Made by a program: the position numbers and the translations under genes
Part shown: positions 18,449 through 27,525 of the stretch, piece by piece
Numbering within the stretch: position 1 is the stretch's first letter
How the letters are laid out: the number at the start of each line of letters is the position of its first letter
Notes under the pieces: generated by a model
What the model was told of the DNA's origin: nothing
What the model saw: the letters and a program-made list of their open reading frames with translations, nothing else
The model's database searches: none
Virus record (IMG/VR): IMGVR_UViG_3300045988_163776
Span: 128,001-155,695 of that record
DNA length: 27,695 bases
Reading direction: 5' to 3' (one strand)
DNA from: a virus

Positions 18449-20881
18449 ATGGATATTGTATCTAAAGAACGTCTTAAATTATATAACGATCTTTTAAAAT
18501 AGCGAGTACCAGACAACAATAATTATGCGAAATTAAGAGAAAAGACTCTTTCTTGTTTAACGACAGATTCTTTAGAATCATATGGCACATACATAAAAGA
18601 TGTTATTTATTATAGAGATCATATCTTATATTGCATAAAAGACACAGATAGTTTATATATAAAATATCCATCCAATAGTACAGTTTCTGAATTTAGTGGC
18701 TGTTTTGGTTCTTTTGAAAACAAAAGTATATATCTATATGAAGATAGCTCTTATTATTATATTTATACTTTAGCCATAAACGCATTAAATATAACTATTA
18801 AACAAGTTAAATTTACAAAAGCAGATGGGAATATATCTTCTTCAAAACCAATTATTACCGCTTACACTGGAGCGTTAAGCAGTGGTGATACTTTATATAA
18901 TTCAGAATTTTATGTTTATAATGATTATGCTTATATTTCTATATTAAATGGCAGTACTTATTATGTAAAGAAATTGAATTTATCATCTTCTATAACAATA
19001 AGTGATTTATATAGTAGTAGTAGTCCATTTTATATAAAGCCAGACGTATTTGATCTTTCTTGCTTTTATATATTAAATGCTACATCAGTAAAAAAAATAA
19101 GTGCAGATGGCAGCTTACAATCTACTACTAATTTACCTTATACGATTTCAACGACTGGCTTTATAGATTACTTTAACAATTATGTGGTTTATACTACAAA
19201 TGGTTTAATTTTTTATATTACAAATTTAACCACAAGCCAAACTAATATGATAGTTTGTGAAGATGATGTACCTCTTTTAGACAGCTCTAATATAAGAACT
19301 TTAAAAATAAAGAAAATTACTAATAAAGGTGCATTACAATTTTATTTAGGTTTAACAGAAGGAAGACATATTAAATTTTATAGTGATACAACATCATTTG
19401 TAAGATTAGAATATTCATTTATCGATCCTTCTAATAAAGTAATATTAAAAATAGTGGCAGACCCTTATAAAAACACTGAAAATATTTTAATTACTTATGA
19501 TACATAGGCAAAATAGATTAGGGTATTAAATGAAAATATATAGGCCTCTGGAGCTGGAATTTTAGCCAGATTACAAGATACTACTAAGCAACAAATCGCA
19601 GAGTTAACAAAAGTAAAAGATACAGTTAAAACTAATTCTGCTAACATTGGCACAATGCAATATGATATTACTCACTTAACAAACACTGTAAATATAAAGA
19701 CTTCAGATCTTGAGAAAAAAATTGTTCCAACATATAAGAATCAAGGGCTATGCGGAACAGACAGTATTGATAATTATAAAACATATGGAGTATATGCTAT
19801 TTACTCATCATCTAGTACTCCATCTGGATTGCCTTTAGATAGAGCTACAAATGAAAAAATATATTTATTTATTATAAACACTCCTTCCGTTGGAGATGAT
19901 TGTATACAAACTTTATATTACACAAAATAGAAAATAACATATCGTAGATTTTATGCAGCAGGAGAAACAGTATGGAGTGATTGGTAGAAAATTATTAATA
20001 CTCCTGAAGCTCTAAAGAATCCAAATGCACTAACACTTACTGTAAATGGTACTAGTATCCCATATGATGGTTCAGCCGCAAAAAGCTCTACATGGTATGC
20101 GCCTACTGGGGCTGGGACCAAAGGACATCAATTAGTGTCTAATGGCGCAGGTGCGCCGGTATGGGAACAACCTCCATACGCAACATGCGCAAGCACTTCG
20201 ACAGTATATGCTAAAGCAATAACAATTCCTAATTTTACTCCAGTAGCTGGAAAGCATATTTTTATTAAATTTAGCAATGCTTCATATTCTCATGTAAATA
20301 CGGCTATTAATTTATAGGTGAATGGAGTGACTAATGCAGTATACCAAAATGGTAAGGCTGTTACTGGCACAACAATGTATGCTTGGTTAGCTAATGATAT
20401 TGTTGAATTTATGTTTGATGGTAGCTATTGGCATATTATATAGATTGTTAATCGTGTAGAAGAAAATAATACTGTTGCACATACTATGAACATTGATGAT
20501 AATGGTGTGGCAATAAATACTGGTGGATATCCTGACAGTGATGCTTGGACAAAAGTATTGACTATTCCAGGGGCAAGCAGTTTAGATGTTACAGTAATAT
20601 ATTAGTCAGAATCGGCTACATATGATTGGGGTTGTGTATGGGTCGGCAACTATCCAGATTTTACTGCAGCCGCAAATTATTCAACATCTTTAACCAATAA
20701 ATTAGCTGGTAAGACAAAAACAACCGCAAATTATCAAGTAAAAGGAGATACAGTCACAGTAGCTTGGAAGTCTGATGGTTCTTCGCATAGTTATTATGGT
20801 CTTTATGTAAGCATAAAGCCTAGTCCTGTTGGAGGAATTTCTTTCTCTTCTAGTTTAACATATGAGCCTATAACGACATAA
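18449..20881 (+). CDS. large tail-fiber/receptor-binding-like protein (about 810 aa) with 9 in-frame TAG sense codons
   Basis: RBS AAGGAGG then ATG 18449. One uninterrupted frame to TAA 20879-20881 except for TAG at 18500, 19505, 19514, 19541, 19928, 19985, 20315, 20441 and 20603. Track ORFs 18974-19507, 19655-19930 and 20135-20317 are all in this same frame. Ser/Thr/Asn/Tyr-rich, beta-rich composition typical of fibre proteins. Confidence 0.7.
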
Positions 20882-20937
20882 TTTGCGTTTATATAAATTT
20901 TTTGATATAATAAAATAAAAAAGAGGGAGGTTAAGAA

Positions 20938-21540
20938 ATGCCAAGTGTTGTAAATCCAACAGACAAACTAGTGCTAACAGATACAACTTTAGAATTGCTC
21001 GTAGATCAAATACGAAATGAAATTCAAAAATTGTATAGTGCTTCTAATTTTAAAAATGTAGAGTATTTAGCTTCAGCAGAAGATGGTGGAAGTAATAAAC
21101 TTATTATTACATTAAACGATGATAGCAAAAGAGAATACATTATAAAAAATGGTAATGCTGGCGCAGATGCGAAAGTTACTGCGGAAGCAAGTATACCAAC
21201 TGATGATACTGTCGGAACTCCTTCTGTGTCTGTAGATTATAGTGTAGGAGCAGACAATACAACGAATTTAATTTTTAATTTTTCACACTTAAAAGGCGCT
21301 ACTGGTGCGGCAGGTCCACAAGGGCCATAGGGAGAACGAGGTCTACAAGGTCTGCAGGGCCCTCAAGGAGAAAAGGGAAATACTGGCGCAACTGGTCCAA
21401 GAGGTGCAACAGGCCCTCAAGGTATATAGGGTATACAAGGTCCTTAGGGAGAAAAGGGCGACCCAGGACCACAGGGTCCACAAGGCCCAAGTGTAATTAG
21501 TTTAAGTGATGACTTAAATTATGAAGGAGTAACTTTATAA
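20938..21540 (+). CDS. collagen-like (Gly-X-Y repeat) tail-fibre protein with 3 in-frame TAG codons
   Basis: Strong RBS AAGAGGGAGG. After about 130 aa, the sequence GATGAAGPQGP-[TAG]-GERGLQGLQGPQGEKGNTGATGPRGATGPQGI-[TAG]-GIQGP-[TAG]-GEKGDPGPQGPQGPS follows, then ...VISLSDDLNYEGVTL and TAA at 21538-21540. The TAGs sit exactly where Gln (CAA/CAG) occurs in neighbouring repeats. Confidence 0.75.
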
Positions 21541-21693
21541 AATTGGTAATCCAGATGGCTTCAACTTTCATTATTAGTTTTCTGGAAATAGATCTTATAA
21601 AGGATAGGAGCTTAGAGAAATATGATGTATAATAATATACATTAGTTCTTAAGAGAATATAATATAAGAAAAATGAAAGAAGGTAAATAATTA

Positions 21694-25759: not shown

Positions 25760-26342
25760 TCCAGAAATAGCTTGTTATATGACAGATTTAGAAGATTTAC
25801 AAAATATCTATGCAAATAAAATAAACAATTATTTTGCAACAGATAAAATAGCAAGCAAATATTATGATTGGGTAAATAATAAAGAACATATAGAACCAAC
25901 ATATGCTTATACATCAGAGGAAATTATTGATATATTATGCTTTAATGAAGATAACAATGGTATCGTGTCAGTATTGCCATTATTTGTATACCTTACCATA
26001 AAAACGAAAAATTGGTCTGTAAAAATAGAAAATATTACAGATGAAATTATTGCTTATACAGAAGCTAATGTAAATGGCTTTAATAATGATTTCCTTAATT
26101 TAATAAAAGAGCAAGTGTTAGAACAATATCCAGGTTTATGTAAGTTTGTTGAGACCGTAGGCGTAAAAGAAGATAATAATACTCAAGAGGGTATTTCTAT
26201 TAATGACAATTTTCTTGATAAATTTGCTTACTATTGGAAAAATGATTGTATGGTAAATATAGAGTTTCCAAGTAAATCTGCTAATGTTGATTTAACTTCT
26301 GGATTTACAGAAGAAGAAAAAAAACGAGCAGAACAAGTTTAG
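25725..26342 (+). CDS. hypothetical protein co-transcribed with the radical SAM gene
   Basis: RBS GAGGAGG then ATG 25725, overlapping the end of the rSAM gene. 205 aa, acidic. The track start at 25707 lacks an RBS. Confidence 0.55.
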   Translation: MSYIVGGTTYPDPEIACYMTDLEDLQNIYANKINNYFATDKIASKYYDWVNNKEHIEPTYAYTSEEIIDILCFNEDNNGIVSVLPLFVYLTIKTKNWSVKIENITDEIIAYTEANVNGFNNDFLNLIKEQVLEQYPGLCKFVETVGVKEDNNTQEGISINDNFLDKFAYYWKNDCMVNIEFPSKSANVDLTSGFTEEEKKRAEQV

Positions 26343-26355
26343 GAGTTGCTAAAAA

Positions 26356-27525
26356 ATGAATCAGATAAGTGATAAAAAAGACTGCCGAGGATGCATGAGC
26401 TTTTGTATGCAAGGTAAATAGTTGGCAGTAGCTGGACATGATGAAAGTCATACCGGTTGGAAAAAATGGAAAGATTTAACTTCTGGTAAGGATGGAACTA
26501 TTATTTGTAGTAAAGATGGATTATCTGCTACCAATCAAACAGACTTAATAAATTTTATCAGAGATGTTTATAAAACTGGAGTGTATAATCCAGAAAAAGG
26601 AAATATGTTTGATGAAGTTCCAAAAAATTTATCACACGTTTATGATTCTCCTTCCTCTAAAAGTGTTCCAAATTCATTAAAAGTTGCAGAAGAAGGAGTT
26701 TCAAGCGATGCTGTTATATATGCAAAACATTATAATAATTTTTTAGAAGCTTTAGCATCTAGTCAAACCAACCCTATTTCAGTAGATAGCAAAGGAGAAC
26801 CTTTAAAAGATAAAAATAAAAATCCTATTAATAATAACGCTACTGAATCTGGCCCAGTCGCTGGTTGGTGGACTAATGCAGATCCTATTGTCGTATCTGG
26901 ATAGAAATATCCGAATAGCGATTTAAGCTTAATAAAAGCTGACTTATATAAAAGTTTATATGAAAAAGCAAGTAAATTAATGTATCATCCTCATCAATGT
27001 TGTATTTGCAATGTATATGAGGGTGGAGATTGGTTAGAAATAGTTAAAGATATTGGCACAGCCTGTTATAATTATGGGATTGTATATAATAACCATGCAG
27101 GAGGTGCTGTTGATACTGCAAAAGGCTATCATGTAACTTTAAGTCGTTTTGACTGTTCTGGATACGTAGGAGCTTGCTTAGCTGTTTTTAATGCTGTTGA
27201 AAATGGTAGTAGTAGCACTAACATTTCTGGATATGGAGGAACTTCAGACGCTTACTTAGAAGATGGTTCTGGGATTCCCTCAAGCTTAAAAAAATATTTT
27301 TCTTTTTCAAGTTCACTTCCTTCTAAACCTGGTTCTATTTTAGTAAGATGGGCAAAATCTGGAGTAGACCCTTTTGGCAATAGAACAGAACACGTTGAGA
27401 TACGAGGAGAAAATGGTATTTGGAGTGGTGGAGGTCGTGGAGGCCCCTCTGGAAATCTTATGATGGGTAAAATGGATACTGGTGGCACTACCTGTAATTT
27501 TGGTTGGGAATATACAGGAGGATAA
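26356..27525 (+). CDS. CHAP-domain cysteine peptidase/amidase (tail-associated lysin-like) with 2 in-frame TAGs
   Basis: RBS AGGAG then ATG 26356. TAG at 26419 and 26902 joins track ORFs 26422-26904 and 26980-27525, which share one frame. FDCSGYVGACL (catalytic Cys) and TEHVEI (His) are CHAP-domain signatures. Gly-rich C-terminus. Ends TAA. Confidence 0.65.

What the first reader, a model, noticed from the sequence alone, without database searches (positions are those of the whole stretch)
18449..27525. Amber (TAG) codon is a sense codon, most likely Gln, in many genes of the tRNA-array and structural/lysis blocks
Several independent contexts show TAG where an amino acid is required. (a) In the collagen-like gene 20938-21540, TAGs fall in the Y position of perfect Gly-X-Y triplets (GP*GERG, GI*GIQGP*GEKG) where the flanking repeats have CAA/CAG Gln. 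(b) In the C1 peptidase gene (23312-24241), two TAGs restore the universally conserved papain motif DQGQ-x-C (Gln19 oxyanion hole). (c) In the GIY-YIG gene (9492-10130), TAG sits inside the GIY..YIG motif. (d) The HEG-like gene 15039-16001 has 10 in-frame TAGs and the 810-aa fibre gene 18449-20881 has 9, with no TAA or TGA in frame. Early genes (1-7000) contain no internal TAG, and one (5291-6667) actually terminates at TAG.
Basis: partly seen in the sequence, partly recalled or inferred. Interest (0 to 1): 0.92.

Follow-up and report, generated by a model that had tools for sequence, protein, structure and literature searches.

The report
Phage amber-to-glutamine recoding, two-headed suppressor tRNA
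This gut-phage fragment reads the stop codon TAG as glutamine in its homing-endonuclease, structural and lysis genes, a known phage trick, but the suppressor tRNA that does it carries a second small hairpin displaying the normal glutamine anticodon, which I could not find described.

Summary
Thirty-nine in-frame TAGs lie in long reading frames free of TAA/TGA. Pfam and PHROG domains run across them, and substitutions downstream of them concentrate at third codon positions.

TAG most likely means Gln:
- Half of all TAG-to-other-codon exchanges with relatives are with CAA/CAG.
- TAG 23459 sits at the papain oxyanion-hole Gln, which is a real CAA/CAG in six standard-code homologues.

It has a tRNA-Gln-type acceptor stem and its own promoter-like and terminator-like sites.

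The TAG distribution is uneven. The block 1-7001 has none internally, while the homing-endonuclease genes and the late block have many. This matches published "code 15" phages, so the recoding itself is a new member of a known kind.

What is new is the tRNA. Its 19-nt variable region forms a hairpin whose loop is a tRNA-Gln anticodon loop (YU-YUG-AR), conserved in 11 diverged relatives. Trp-type opal suppressors in other phage contigs carry a strongly covarying hairpin with the Trp anticodon loop (CUCCAAA). I infer, without a test, that this second anticodon arm helps anticodon-reading synthetases charge the suppressor.

The parts
16887..16973 (+). Amber suppressor tRNA with anticodon CUA (16920-16922). 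It has a Gln-type acceptor (U1:A72, G2-G5/C68-C71, G73, G10), a 19-nt variable region and no encoded CCA.
   Evidence: ARAGORN, which labels it 'Pyl' from the anticodon alone. Rfam tRNA, 57.7 bits. Cloverleaf fold. Acceptor and D arm resemble the window's own tRNA-Gln(UUG) and E. coli tRNA-Gln. Stems covary in 11 relatives. Relatives encode CCA; the window has a 4-nt deletion.
16931..16941 (+). Mini-hairpin GC[UUCUGAG]GC in the variable region of the suppressor tRNA. Its loop has the form of a tRNA-Gln anticodon loop (U33-CUG-A37).
   Evidence: The loop Y-U-[C/U]-U-G-A-R is conserved in all 12 family members, while the stem changes (GC, UA, UG and CG at the third pair). The scans that found these tRNAs did not specify the arm.
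16788..16816 (+). Promoter-like site TTGAAA-17-(TG)TATAAT, 71 nt upstream of the suppressor tRNA.
   Evidence: Best-scoring sigma-70-type site in 14000-27695 (11 of 12 plus extended -10). This is a consensus match only.
17089..17111 (+). Terminator-like hairpin followed by a T-run, downstream of the suppressor tRNA.
   Evidence: 9-bp stem, 5 GC pairs. This is a consensus match only.
9492..10130 (+). GIY-YIG/NUMOD1 homing-endonuclease gene with 1 in-frame TAG (9528) inside the catalytic motif.
   Evidence: The Pfam GIY-YIG match covers residues 2-87 and so spans the TAG. The TAG is conserved in L022, L024 and L025.
15039..16001 (+). Homing-endonuclease-like gene with 10 in-frame TAGs against 5 CAA/CAG. 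It is absent from relative L024, so it is mobile.
   Evidence: The phrog_559 match covers residues 10-307. It aligns with full-length standard-code homing-endonuclease genes such as the Tuc2009 intron ORF. Presence/absence is shown.
17304..17678 (+). Small gene with a TAG at 17637, near its C-terminus.
   Evidence: the TAG is conserved in three relatives. The public gene call of 124 aa reads through it.
18449..20881 (+). 810-aa protein of unknown family, presumed structural, with 9 in-frame TAGs.
   Evidence: The chance of an open frame this long is 5.7e-29. Substitutions by codon position 3/1/2 are 187/114/100. No Pfam or PHROG hit.
20938..21540 (+). Collagen-repeat tail-fibre-like gene with 3 TAGs in the Gly-X-Y Y position.
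   Evidence: The Pfam Collagen match (residues 124-180) spans all three TAGs. PHROG tail-fibre families match. TAG 21427 is CAG in L022 and L027.
21694..22225 (+). Fibre-tip-like paralogue A, frameshifted at a G8 tract (21793). Its C-terminal part holds 4 TAGs.
   Evidence: Relatives with G10 or G11 are in frame (175-177 aa).
22308..22752 (+). Paralogue B, frameshifted at a G8 tract (22410), with 1 TAG (22501).
   Evidence: L024 has G10 and an intact 148-aa gene.
22813..23280 (+). Paralogue C, intact, with a TAG at 23263.
   Evidence: TAG 23263 is GAA or AAA in four relatives and the frame continues past it, so it is a sense codon.
23312..24241 (+). C1 (papain-like) peptidase plus SLH domain, probably a lysis enzyme, with 5 TAGs (23369, 23459, 23465, 23894, 24200).
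   Evidence: Pfam. Position 50 is Q in 37 of 37 homologues and position 297 in 25 of 28. True CAA/CAG in standard-code homologues. The homologue in L004 sits next to a holin and an amidase.
24509..25759 (+). Radical SAM/SPASM maturase-like gene with no TAG (13 CAA/CAG).
25725..26372 (+). Gene of unknown function with a TAG at 26340.
26356..27525 (+). 389-aa gene of unknown function with 2 TAGs (26419, 26902).
   Evidence: Substitutions by codon position 3/1/2 are 106/43/25. TAG 26902 is AAG in two relatives.
39..7001 (+). Upstream block of 7 genes with no internal TAG. Gene 5291-6667 ends at TAG 6665.
   Evidence: The TAG is conserved in relatives 85% and 98% identical and is followed by the ribosome-binding site and ATG (6690) of the next gene.

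Best explanation
The window comes from a roughly 155.7-kb uncultured tailed phage, probably of a Firmicutes host. The phage uses TAG as a third glutamine codon ('genetic code 15') in its homing-endonuclease genes and its structural/lysis block.

Decoding is done by a phage-encoded amber suppressor tRNA at 16887-16973 (anticodon CUA), which descends from tRNA-Gln. It keeps the Gln acceptor-stem identity set. It lies at the end of the tRNA array, just upstream of the recoded late block, with its own promoter-like and terminator-like sites.

Shown here:
- TAG is translated.
- Gln is the residue that evolution treats as equivalent to TAG.
- The tRNA exists and is Gln-like.
- TAG use is confined to particular genes.

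Inferred:
- The tRNA is charged with Gln by host enzymes, either GlnRS or GluRS plus amidotransferase.
- Recoded genes can be made only once the suppressor has accumulated. That would keep late, lysis and endonuclease proteins off early in infection, as in the published model.
- The conserved hairpin in the variable arm, which displays a Gln anticodon loop, supplies the anticodon identity signal (G36) that the CUA anticodon has lost.
For: - Open frames and counts.
- Domains run across the TAGs.
- Purifying selection acts downstream of the TAGs.
- TAG exchanges with CAA/CAG in 17 of 34 events, and Q has the best BLOSUM62 sum (88, against 42 for E).
- The invariant papain Gln is a real CAA/CAG in six standard-code homologues.
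- A second recoded phage shows the reciprocal pattern.
- The suppressor tRNA is supported, with covarying stems.
- Promoter-like and terminator-like sites flank the tRNA.
- TAG use differs between blocks (Fisher p = 8e-6).
- All four homing-endonuclease genes seen in this phage group are recoded, while the neighbouring non-endonuclease genes of the array have no TAG.
- Published precedent: Borges et al., bioRxiv 10.1101/2021.08.26.457843; the proteomic proof of TAG=Gln in crAss-like phages, PMC9523058; phAss-1, PMC10607447.
- Gln identity rules (acceptor stem, discriminator, 10-25 pair, U35, G36; U1-A72 for the amidotransferase route): PMC9976931.
Against: - There is no protein-level evidence for this phage, and the host and its Gln-charging route are unknown.
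- Lys (5), Ser (4) and Glu (2) codons also exchange with TAG. This is expected for Gln but is not exclusive to it.
- The tRNA is atypical for tRNA-Gln. It has a 19-nt variable region, and in this genome it lacks an encoded CCA. G73, G2:C71 and a long arm are also features of tRNA-Ser.
- The suppressor's promoter-like site looks like a host-type promoter, which does not by itself predict late expression.
- TAG 6665 may be a stop or a sense codon.
- Release-factor or synthetase genes, if the phage has any, lie outside the window.
Confidence: 0.9

Rival explanations
1. TAG is translated, but as another amino acid. Candidates are Ser (long variable arm plus G73), Lys, Glu, Tyr, or pyrrolysine (ARAGORN's label).
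For: The tRNA has a long variable region, G73 and G2:C71, as in bacterial tRNA-Ser. Lys, Ser and Glu codons are the next most frequent partners of TAG. ARAGORN prints 'tRNA-Pyl'.
Against: Half of all exchanges are with Gln codons, and the BLOSUM62 sums are S 10 and K 35 against Q 88. TAG occupies the invariant oxyanion-hole Gln of papain-like peptidases. The acceptor stem has U1:A72 like tRNA-Gln, and the sequence is closest to the phage's own tRNA-Gln. The extra arm is only 2-4 bp and displays a Gln anticodon. The tRNA has G18G19, a 5-bp anticodon stem and a long variable region, unlike tRNA-Pyl (own knowledge of tRNA-Pyl). The only radical SAM gene in the window is a SPASM peptide-maturase type, not PylB.
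Confidence: 0.05
2. The TAGs are real stops, and the genes are pseudogenes, split genes or assembly artefacts.
For: Under table 11 the region breaks into short ORFs. Two genes in the region really are disrupted, by poly-G frameshifts.
Against: Frames of 309-810 codons with no TAA/TGA have chance probabilities of 1e-9 to 1e-29. Third-position bias continues after the TAGs. Catalytic domains would be cut in two. The same TAGs occur in independent assemblies, and some are replaced by CAA/CAG. A matching suppressor tRNA is encoded in the window.
Confidence: 0.01
3. TAG=Gln is right, but the block pattern has no regulatory purpose. TAG would simply have drifted in as a synonymous Gln codon in an AT-rich genome once a suppressor existed, and gene-to-gene differences would reflect gene history, for example endonuclease genes moving between recoded phages.
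For: Several late-block genes have no TAG (17694-18389; the radical SAM gene with 13 CAA/CAG). The suppressor's promoter-like site is of the host type. The endonuclease genes are mobile. TAG and CAA/CAG interchange freely between strains.
Against: The 0-of-65 against 27-of-103 contrast between blocks is strong. The same bias to late, lysis and intron-endonuclease genes was found independently in several phage clades.
Confidence: 0.3
4. The hairpin in the tRNA's variable arm is not a synthetase signal. It could be a leftover of an anticodon-arm duplication, a processing or modification site, a decoy for an anticodon nuclease, or a binding site for a phage protein.
For: In the canonical L-shape a variable arm points away from the face that GlnRS binds (own knowledge of the GlnRS-tRNA complex). 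In the window's tRNA the stem is only 2-3 bp. The third pair is unpaired in 4 of 11 sequences.
Against: The loops stay constant while the stems change by compensation, in two unrelated suppressor families. Each loop shows the anticodon of the amino acid that replaces the stop (Gln YUG, Trp CCA), with U33 and A37. Both synthetases are known to depend on the anticodon (PMC9976931). An engineered pseudo-anticodon arm enhanced charging in E. coli (PMC7590224).
Confidence: 0.4

Closest known systems
Phages with genetic code 15 (TAG read as Gln): crAss-like, Lak and the clades of Borges et al. (bioRxiv 10.1101/2021.08.26.457843; proteomics in PMC9523058)
   Same: In-frame TAG in structural, lysis and endonuclease genes. 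Standard-code-compatible blocks elsewhere. A phage-encoded CUA suppressor tRNA. A low-GC genome. TAG aligns with Gln.
   Different: This is a different lineage. There is no nucleotide match in 50,697 GenBank phage records, and the nearest protein hits are Enterococcus myoviruses of about 150 kb at 27-43% identity. The suppressor tRNA has a second hairpin that displays a Gln anticodon. The recoded-phage papers I could search do not mention a variable arm.
phAss-1 / proposed Phassvirus (PMC10607447)
   Same: An uncultured gut phage of about 136 kb with many tRNAs. It has TAG=Gln in 41 ORFs, CUA suppressor tRNAs and no phage-encoded synthetase.
   Different: Not detectably related in the parts tested. 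phAss-1 and its two relatives are GenBank records, and no GenBank phage matched by megablast or among the tblastn hits listed. phAss-1 has three suppressor genes. Only one lies in this window.
E. coli supE-type amber suppressor (tRNA-Gln with a CUA anticodon)
   Same: A tRNA-Gln body with anticodon CUA that inserts Gln at UAG (own knowledge). It has the same acceptor identity set: U1:A72, G2:C71, G3:C70, G73 and G10.
   Different: supE is an ordinary short-variable-loop tRNA. The phage tRNA adds a 19-23-nt variable region carrying a Gln anticodon-loop look-alike.
Engineered 'pseudo-anticodon arm' tRNAs (Mukai 2020, PMC7590224)
   Same: An amber suppressor tRNA whose variable arm is shaped as an anticodon arm with the cognate anticodon, so as to attract the synthetase's anticodon-binding domain.
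   Different: That design is synthetic, uses an allo-tRNA chassis, and needed HisRS fused to an extra anticodon-binding domain. The tRNAs here are natural, Gln- and Trp-specific, and presumably work with unmodified host enzymes.
Class II tRNAs (Ser, Leu, Tyr) with long variable arms
   Same: A five-arm cloverleaf with an extra stem-loop between the anticodon arm and the T arm.
   Different: In class II tRNAs the arm's sequence is not conserved and carries no anticodon-like loop (own knowledge). Here the loop is the conserved part, and the acceptor identity is Gln (or Trp), not Ser, Leu or Tyr.

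Membership tests
Phage stop-codon recoding, genetic code 15 (TAG read as Gln) | In-frame TAG inside conserved protein-coding genes that stay open for TAA/TGA. | tested here: met
   39 in-frame TAGs in 13 genes. Domains run across them.
Phage stop-codon recoding, genetic code 15 (TAG read as Gln) | TAG positions align with Gln in homologues that use the standard code. 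| tested here: met
   The papain Gln19 site is CAA/CAG in six standard-code homologues. 17 of 34 codon exchanges are with CAA/CAG.
Phage stop-codon recoding, genetic code 15 (TAG read as Gln) | A phage-encoded suppressor tRNA with anticodon CUA. | tested here: met
   16887-16973.
Phage stop-codon recoding, genetic code 15 (TAG read as Gln) | Recoding concentrated in late, structural, lysis and endonuclease genes, with other blocks compatible with the standard code. | tested here: met
   1 TAG against 65 CAA/CAG in 39-7001, and 27 against 76 in 17304-27525 (p = 8e-6). Endonuclease genes hold 11 TAGs, and the other genes of the tRNA array hold none. Expression timing itself was not tested.
Phage stop-codon recoding, genetic code 15 (TAG read as Gln) | Gln found at TAG positions in the protein. 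| not testable with these tools
   This needs LC-MS/MS of virions or infected cells.
tRNA-Gln (bacterial identity set) | U1:A72, G2:C71, G3:C70, discriminator G73 and G10. | tested here: met
   The 5' strand is UGGGGAU and the 3' strand AUCCCCA, followed by G. G10 is invariant in the family. The rules are taken from PMC9976931 and own knowledge.
tRNA-Gln (bacterial identity set) | Anticodon U35 and G36. | tested here: not met
   The decoding anticodon is CUA (U35 present, A36 in place of G36). A YUG triplet with G36 is present only in the variable-arm hairpin.
tRNA-Gln (bacterial identity set) | A short (4-5 nt) variable loop. | tested here: not met
   The variable region is 19 nt, and 19-23 nt across the family.
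tRNA-Ser / class II tRNA | A long, stably paired variable arm, with Ser as the decoded residue. | tested here: not met
   The arm is only 2-4 bp. Ser codons account for 4 of 34 exchanges, and the BLOSUM62 sum is 10 against 88 for Gln. Charging itself was not tested.
tRNA-Pyl / pyrrolysine decoding | The tRNA-Pyl architecture (very short variable loop, small D loop without G18G19, longer anticodon stem) together with pyl genes. | tested here: not met
   The tRNA has G18G19, a 5-bp anticodon stem and a 19-nt variable region. No pyl-like gene lies in the window, and the radical SAM gene is of the SPASM maturase type. The rest of the genome was not examined.

The most novel reading that the evidence does not exclude
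Phage stop-codon suppressor tRNAs may be 'two-headed'. Besides the anticodon that reads the stop codon, they carry in the variable region a second hairpin that displays the anticodon loop of the amino acid to be inserted. That loop is YU-YUG-AR (Gln) in amber suppressors such as the one in this window, and CUCCAAA (Trp) in opal suppressors. This pseudo-anticodon arm would be the identity signal that lets the host's anticodon-dependent GlnRS or TrpRS charge a tRNA whose real anticodon has been changed. It would explain how phages recode hosts without bringing their own synthetase.
Probability: 0.4. Interest if true: 0.9.

Novelty: new variant of a known kind. Interest (0 to 1): 0.7.

Why it matters
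The recoding has a practical consequence. With the standard table, about a third of this region's genes are truncated or missed, including the peptidase/SLH lysis enzyme, the collagen-like fibre and all the homing-endonuclease genes.

The tRNA matters more. Borges et al. noted that the way most recoded phages get their suppressor tRNAs charged is unexplained, because few of them encode a synthetase. A natural second anticodon arm gives a concrete hypothesis that can be tested at the bench. It would be a new kind of tRNA identity element. It would also be a ready-made design for efficient suppressor tRNAs in genetic-code engineering, where a similar idea was built by hand (PMC7590224).

Tried and rejected
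- Megablast of 25 kb against GenBank phages found no match.
- A scan of IMG/VR with the exact 17-mer of the anticodon arm found nothing.
- The search for related loci with the 231-aa and 547-aa proteins returned only remote relatives or none.
- Standard-code homing-endonuclease homologues (about 30% identity) were aligned to read the residue at the 10 TAG sites. They are too divergent to name an amino acid and only show that the TAGs fall inside aligned blocks.
- I tried to decide whether TAG 6665 is a stop. The TAG is conserved in two relatives. The 11 codons after it coincide with the next gene's ribosome-binding site. Homologue C-terminal tails vary in length and are often acidic. The question stays open.
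- ORF coverage under alternative codes in the short flanks of the other suppressor-tRNA loci was too noisy to show which code those phages use.
- The pyrrolysine and serine readings were considered and rejected (see the rival explanations).
- The 'CHAP' and 'fibre' labels could not be supported.
- Eight literature searches found no description of natural pseudo-anticodon arms. The library holds only open-access papers and preprints, so prior description elsewhere is not excluded.

Full report
**What the window is.** All genes lie on the + strand of an AT-rich (31% GC) phage-like sequence. A tRNA array spans about 7300-17000, with 16 tRNAs by ARAGORN and 19 by Rfam. The window is 100% identical over 8449-27686 to a 155,711-bp ENA metagenome scaffold (L023). 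Strain-level relatives of 89-98% identity come from other samples (L022, L024-L027, L005). More distant relatives are 65-70% identical (L001, L006). No GenBank phage matches at the nucleotide level. The AAA ATPase at 11309-12400 and the protein at 5291-6667 find only Enterococcus myoviruses of about 150 kb, at 27-43% identity. The SLH domain on the peptidase points to a Firmicutes-type cell wall; that is an inference.

**The observation.** Treating TAG as sense joins the fragmented ORFs into long frames that contain no TAA or TGA.
- 15039-16001: 320 codons, 10 TAGs.
- 18449-20881: 810 codons, 9 TAGs.
- 20938-21540: 3 TAGs.
- 23312-24241: 5 TAGs.
- 9492-10130: 1 TAG.

Several other genes have 1-4 TAGs, giving 39 in all. 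The other two frames of the same stretches hold 11-70 TAA/TGA. The chance of such open frames is therefore 5.7e-29, 4.3e-16 and 5.2e-09. Coverage by ORFs of at least 100 aa rises from 61.7% to 76.0% with TAG as sense, against 66.9% with TGA as sense. The public protein collection already holds full-length translations of these genes that do not match a table-11 translation. An automated gene caller has therefore already read them with TAG as sense.

**TAG is translated.**
- The Pfam GIY-YIG match (residues 2-87), the Collagen match (124-180) and the Peptidase_C1 match run across TAGs, and the SLH match ends one residue before the TAG at position 297.
- The PHROG HNH-endonuclease family phrog_559 matches residues 10-307 of the 15039 gene, across all ten TAGs.
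- That gene aligns along its length with standard-code homing endonucleases such as the Tuc2009 intron ORF, and its TAGs fall inside aligned blocks.
- Downstream of the first TAG of each gene, differences from the relatives concentrate at third codon positions. Counts for positions 3/1/2 are 57/14/7 for the peptidase, 21/4/4 for the collagen gene, 106/43/25 for gene 26356 and 187/114/100 for the 810-aa gene.
- The same TAGs occur in independent assemblies.

**Which amino acid.**
- Among 34 distinct codon exchanges involving TAG, counted in either direction between the window and its relatives, 17 are with CAA/CAG. Lys has 5, Ser 4, and Glu and Tyr 2 each. TAG is the commonest replacement of CAA, with 7 cases against 6 for CAG.
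- Summed BLOSUM62 scores give Q 88, E 42, K 35 and S 10.
- In the peptidase, TAG 23459 aligns with Gln in 37 of 37 homologues and TAG 24200 in 25 of 28.
- Database proteins may themselves have been translated with code 15, so I checked the DNA. Six homologues with no in-frame TAG (L004, L007, L008, L009, L011, L013) have a real CAA/CAG at the 23459 site, which is the oxyanion-hole Gln of papain-like enzymes.
- The 74%-identical gene in L001 is itself recoded. It places TAGs where the window has CAA/CAG, and the reverse.
- Between strains, TAG 23459, 23465 and 21427 alternate with CAA/CAG.

**The decoder.** ARAGORN labels it 'Pyl' from the anticodon alone, and Rfam scores it at 57.7 bits. Its acceptor stem is UGGGGAU/AUCCCCA followed by G73. 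That gives U1:A72, G2:C71, G3:C70 and G73, plus G10, which is the bacterial tRNA-Gln identity set. The sequence resembles the phage's own tRNA-Gln(UUG) and E. coli tRNA-Gln (identity rules from PMC9976931). The best sigma-70-like site in 14000-27695 lies 71 nt upstream, and a terminator-like hairpin lies about 115 nt downstream. These are consensus matches only. In this genome a 4-nt deletion removes the encoded CCA that the relatives have.

**Distribution of TAG.**
- The seven genes in 39-7001 have 65 CAA/CAG and no internal TAG.
- The block 17304-27525 has 27 TAG against 76 CAA/CAG (Fisher p = 8e-6).
- Within the tRNA array, only the two homing-endonuclease genes contain TAG (1 and 10).
- Two further endonuclease genes present in relatives have 3 and 4 TAGs.
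- The 15039 gene is absent from L024, which shows it is mobile.
- Some late-block genes have none, namely 17694-18389 and the radical SAM gene.

This is the pattern published for recoded phages, including preferential recoding of an intron endonuclease. The temporal-switch interpretation remains an inference here. TAG 6665, which ends gene 5291-6667 under the standard code, is conserved in two relatives. It is followed by the next gene's ribosome-binding site and ATG. Whether it stops translation or adds 11 residues cannot be decided.

**The unexpected part: a second anticodon-like hairpin.** The tRNA is 87 nt long because its variable region is 19 nt. I scanned IMG/VR and JGI/ENA metagenomes with a pattern that fixed only the CUA anticodon loop, the T loop and the Gln-type 3' acceptor strand. 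All 5 viral hits and 18 of 19 metagenome hits have the long region. Eleven distinct full sequences show compensatory changes in the acceptor, D, anticodon and T stems. Whole-structure covariation exceeded all 500 shuffles and all slid controls.

In every one of them the variable region forms a 2-4-bp hairpin. Its 7-nt loop is Y-U-[C/U]-U-G-A-R, which is the shape of a tRNA-Gln anticodon loop with anticodon CUG, or UUG in two members. U33 and A37 are both in place. The real anticodon loop is CUCUAAA, and the hairpin loop is CUCUGAA in most members and UUCUGAG in the window (16931-16941). The third stem pair covaries (GC, UA, UG, CG) but is unpaired in the window's subgroup.

**A test of generality.** I asked whether opal suppressors do the same with Trp.
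- An arm-agnostic scan for Trp-type UCA tRNAs in IMG/VR gave 17 distinct sequences.
- Sixteen of them have a 23-28-nt variable region.
- Fifteen of those contain a 4-5-bp hairpin with loop [C/G]UCCAAA, the tRNA-Trp anticodon loop.
- RNAalifold predicts this fifth arm on its own, and it is the most strongly covarying helix. Pair 50-66 is GC 5, AU 5, CG 4, UA 1. Pair 51-65 is CG 6, GC 5, AU 4, GU 1.

So two unrelated suppressor families each display the anticodon of the amino acid that replaces the stop. Both GlnRS and TrpRS depend on the anticodon for identity (plus own knowledge).

My inference is that the hairpin acts as a pseudo-anticodon arm for the synthetase. One possibility is an alternative stacking of the five-way junction. 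In the standard L-shape a variable arm points away from the face GlnRS binds, which is the main argument against simple recognition. An engineered version of this idea improved charging in E. coli (PMC7590224). I found no description of natural examples in eight searches of an open-access library. That is weak evidence of novelty.

**Verdict.** The observation and the Gln interpretation are both confirmed. As a case of phage code 15 it is a new member of a well-described kind. The architecture of the suppressor tRNA makes it a new variant, and that architecture is the part worth following up.

Noticed in passing
window 21793-21800 and 22410-22417: These are the only two G runs of 6 or more in the window (G8 each). 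Each sits just after the conserved N-terminal part (about 35 aa) of a paralogous fibre-tip-like gene (starts 21694 and 22308; the third paralogue at 22813 has no tract) and puts that gene out of frame. Relatives have G10 or G11 and intact genes (gene A in L022, L025 and L026; gene B in L024), while L024 has G8 in gene A. This looks like slipped-strand on/off switching of alternative receptor-binding tips, or a homopolymer assembly error.
   Followed up: partly
L063-L093 (IMG/VR contigs of 14-230 kb), e.g. L070:9001-9063: Trp-type opal suppressor tRNAs (anticodon UCA, acceptor AGGGGCU/AGCCCCU plus G) carry a full second anticodon-like arm. It has a 5-bp covarying stem and the loop CUCCAAA (Trp anticodon CCA), and lies between the anticodon arm and a normal-length 4-nt variable loop.
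   Followed up: partly
window 16966-16980: The suppressor tRNA gene lacks the encoded 3' CCA because of a 4-nt deletion in a CCAGCCAG repeat. The relatives L022, L024 and L025 read GTCCCCAGCCAGCG, while the window reads ATCCCCAGCG. The other well-formed tRNAs of the array that were aligned with it do encode CCA.
   Followed up: partly
window 24415-25759: A 35-aa ORF (MKLYIYKWDNDTFIGSNKGYMVKYEEKQRFIDAIS) with a good ribosome-binding site overlaps the start of a radical SAM/SPASM peptide-maturase-like gene. The best NCBIfam match is PapB-type, below the curated cut-off. A promoter-like site and the peptidase gene's terminator precede it. This may be a phage-borne modified-peptide cassette. It contains no TAG.
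   Followed up: no
window 15039-16001; L022:4340-5086; L024:6655-7314: Homing-endonuclease genes come and go between strains. The 15039 gene is missing in L024. L022 has an extra GIY-YIG gene next to tRNA-Phe. L024 has an extra HNH gene. All of these genes contain in-frame TAGs (10, 3 and 4).
   Followed up: partly
window 7309-7378, 7380-7472, 11037-11109, 13082-13156, 14589-14673: The array holds several odd tRNA-like elements. One has an 8-nt anticodon loop (ARAGORN anticodon 'gatt'). One has a 2-nt 'anticodon'. A 93-nt 'tRNA-Pro(cgg)' folds poorly. An 85-nt class II tRNA-Tyr(GUA) was found by Rfam but not by ARAGORN.
   Followed up: no
L004:4864-6921 (NCBI GCA_037193965.1): A standard-code homologue of the C1 peptidase/SLH protein sits directly after a holin and an amidase. 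This supports a lysis role for window gene 23312-24241.
   Followed up: no
window 5291-6667: This Cys-rich protein of unknown function belongs to a large family. It has 2133 homologues at E<=1e-5, many on phage-sized contigs of 120-200 kb, yet only seven weak hits in GenBank phages.
   Followed up: no
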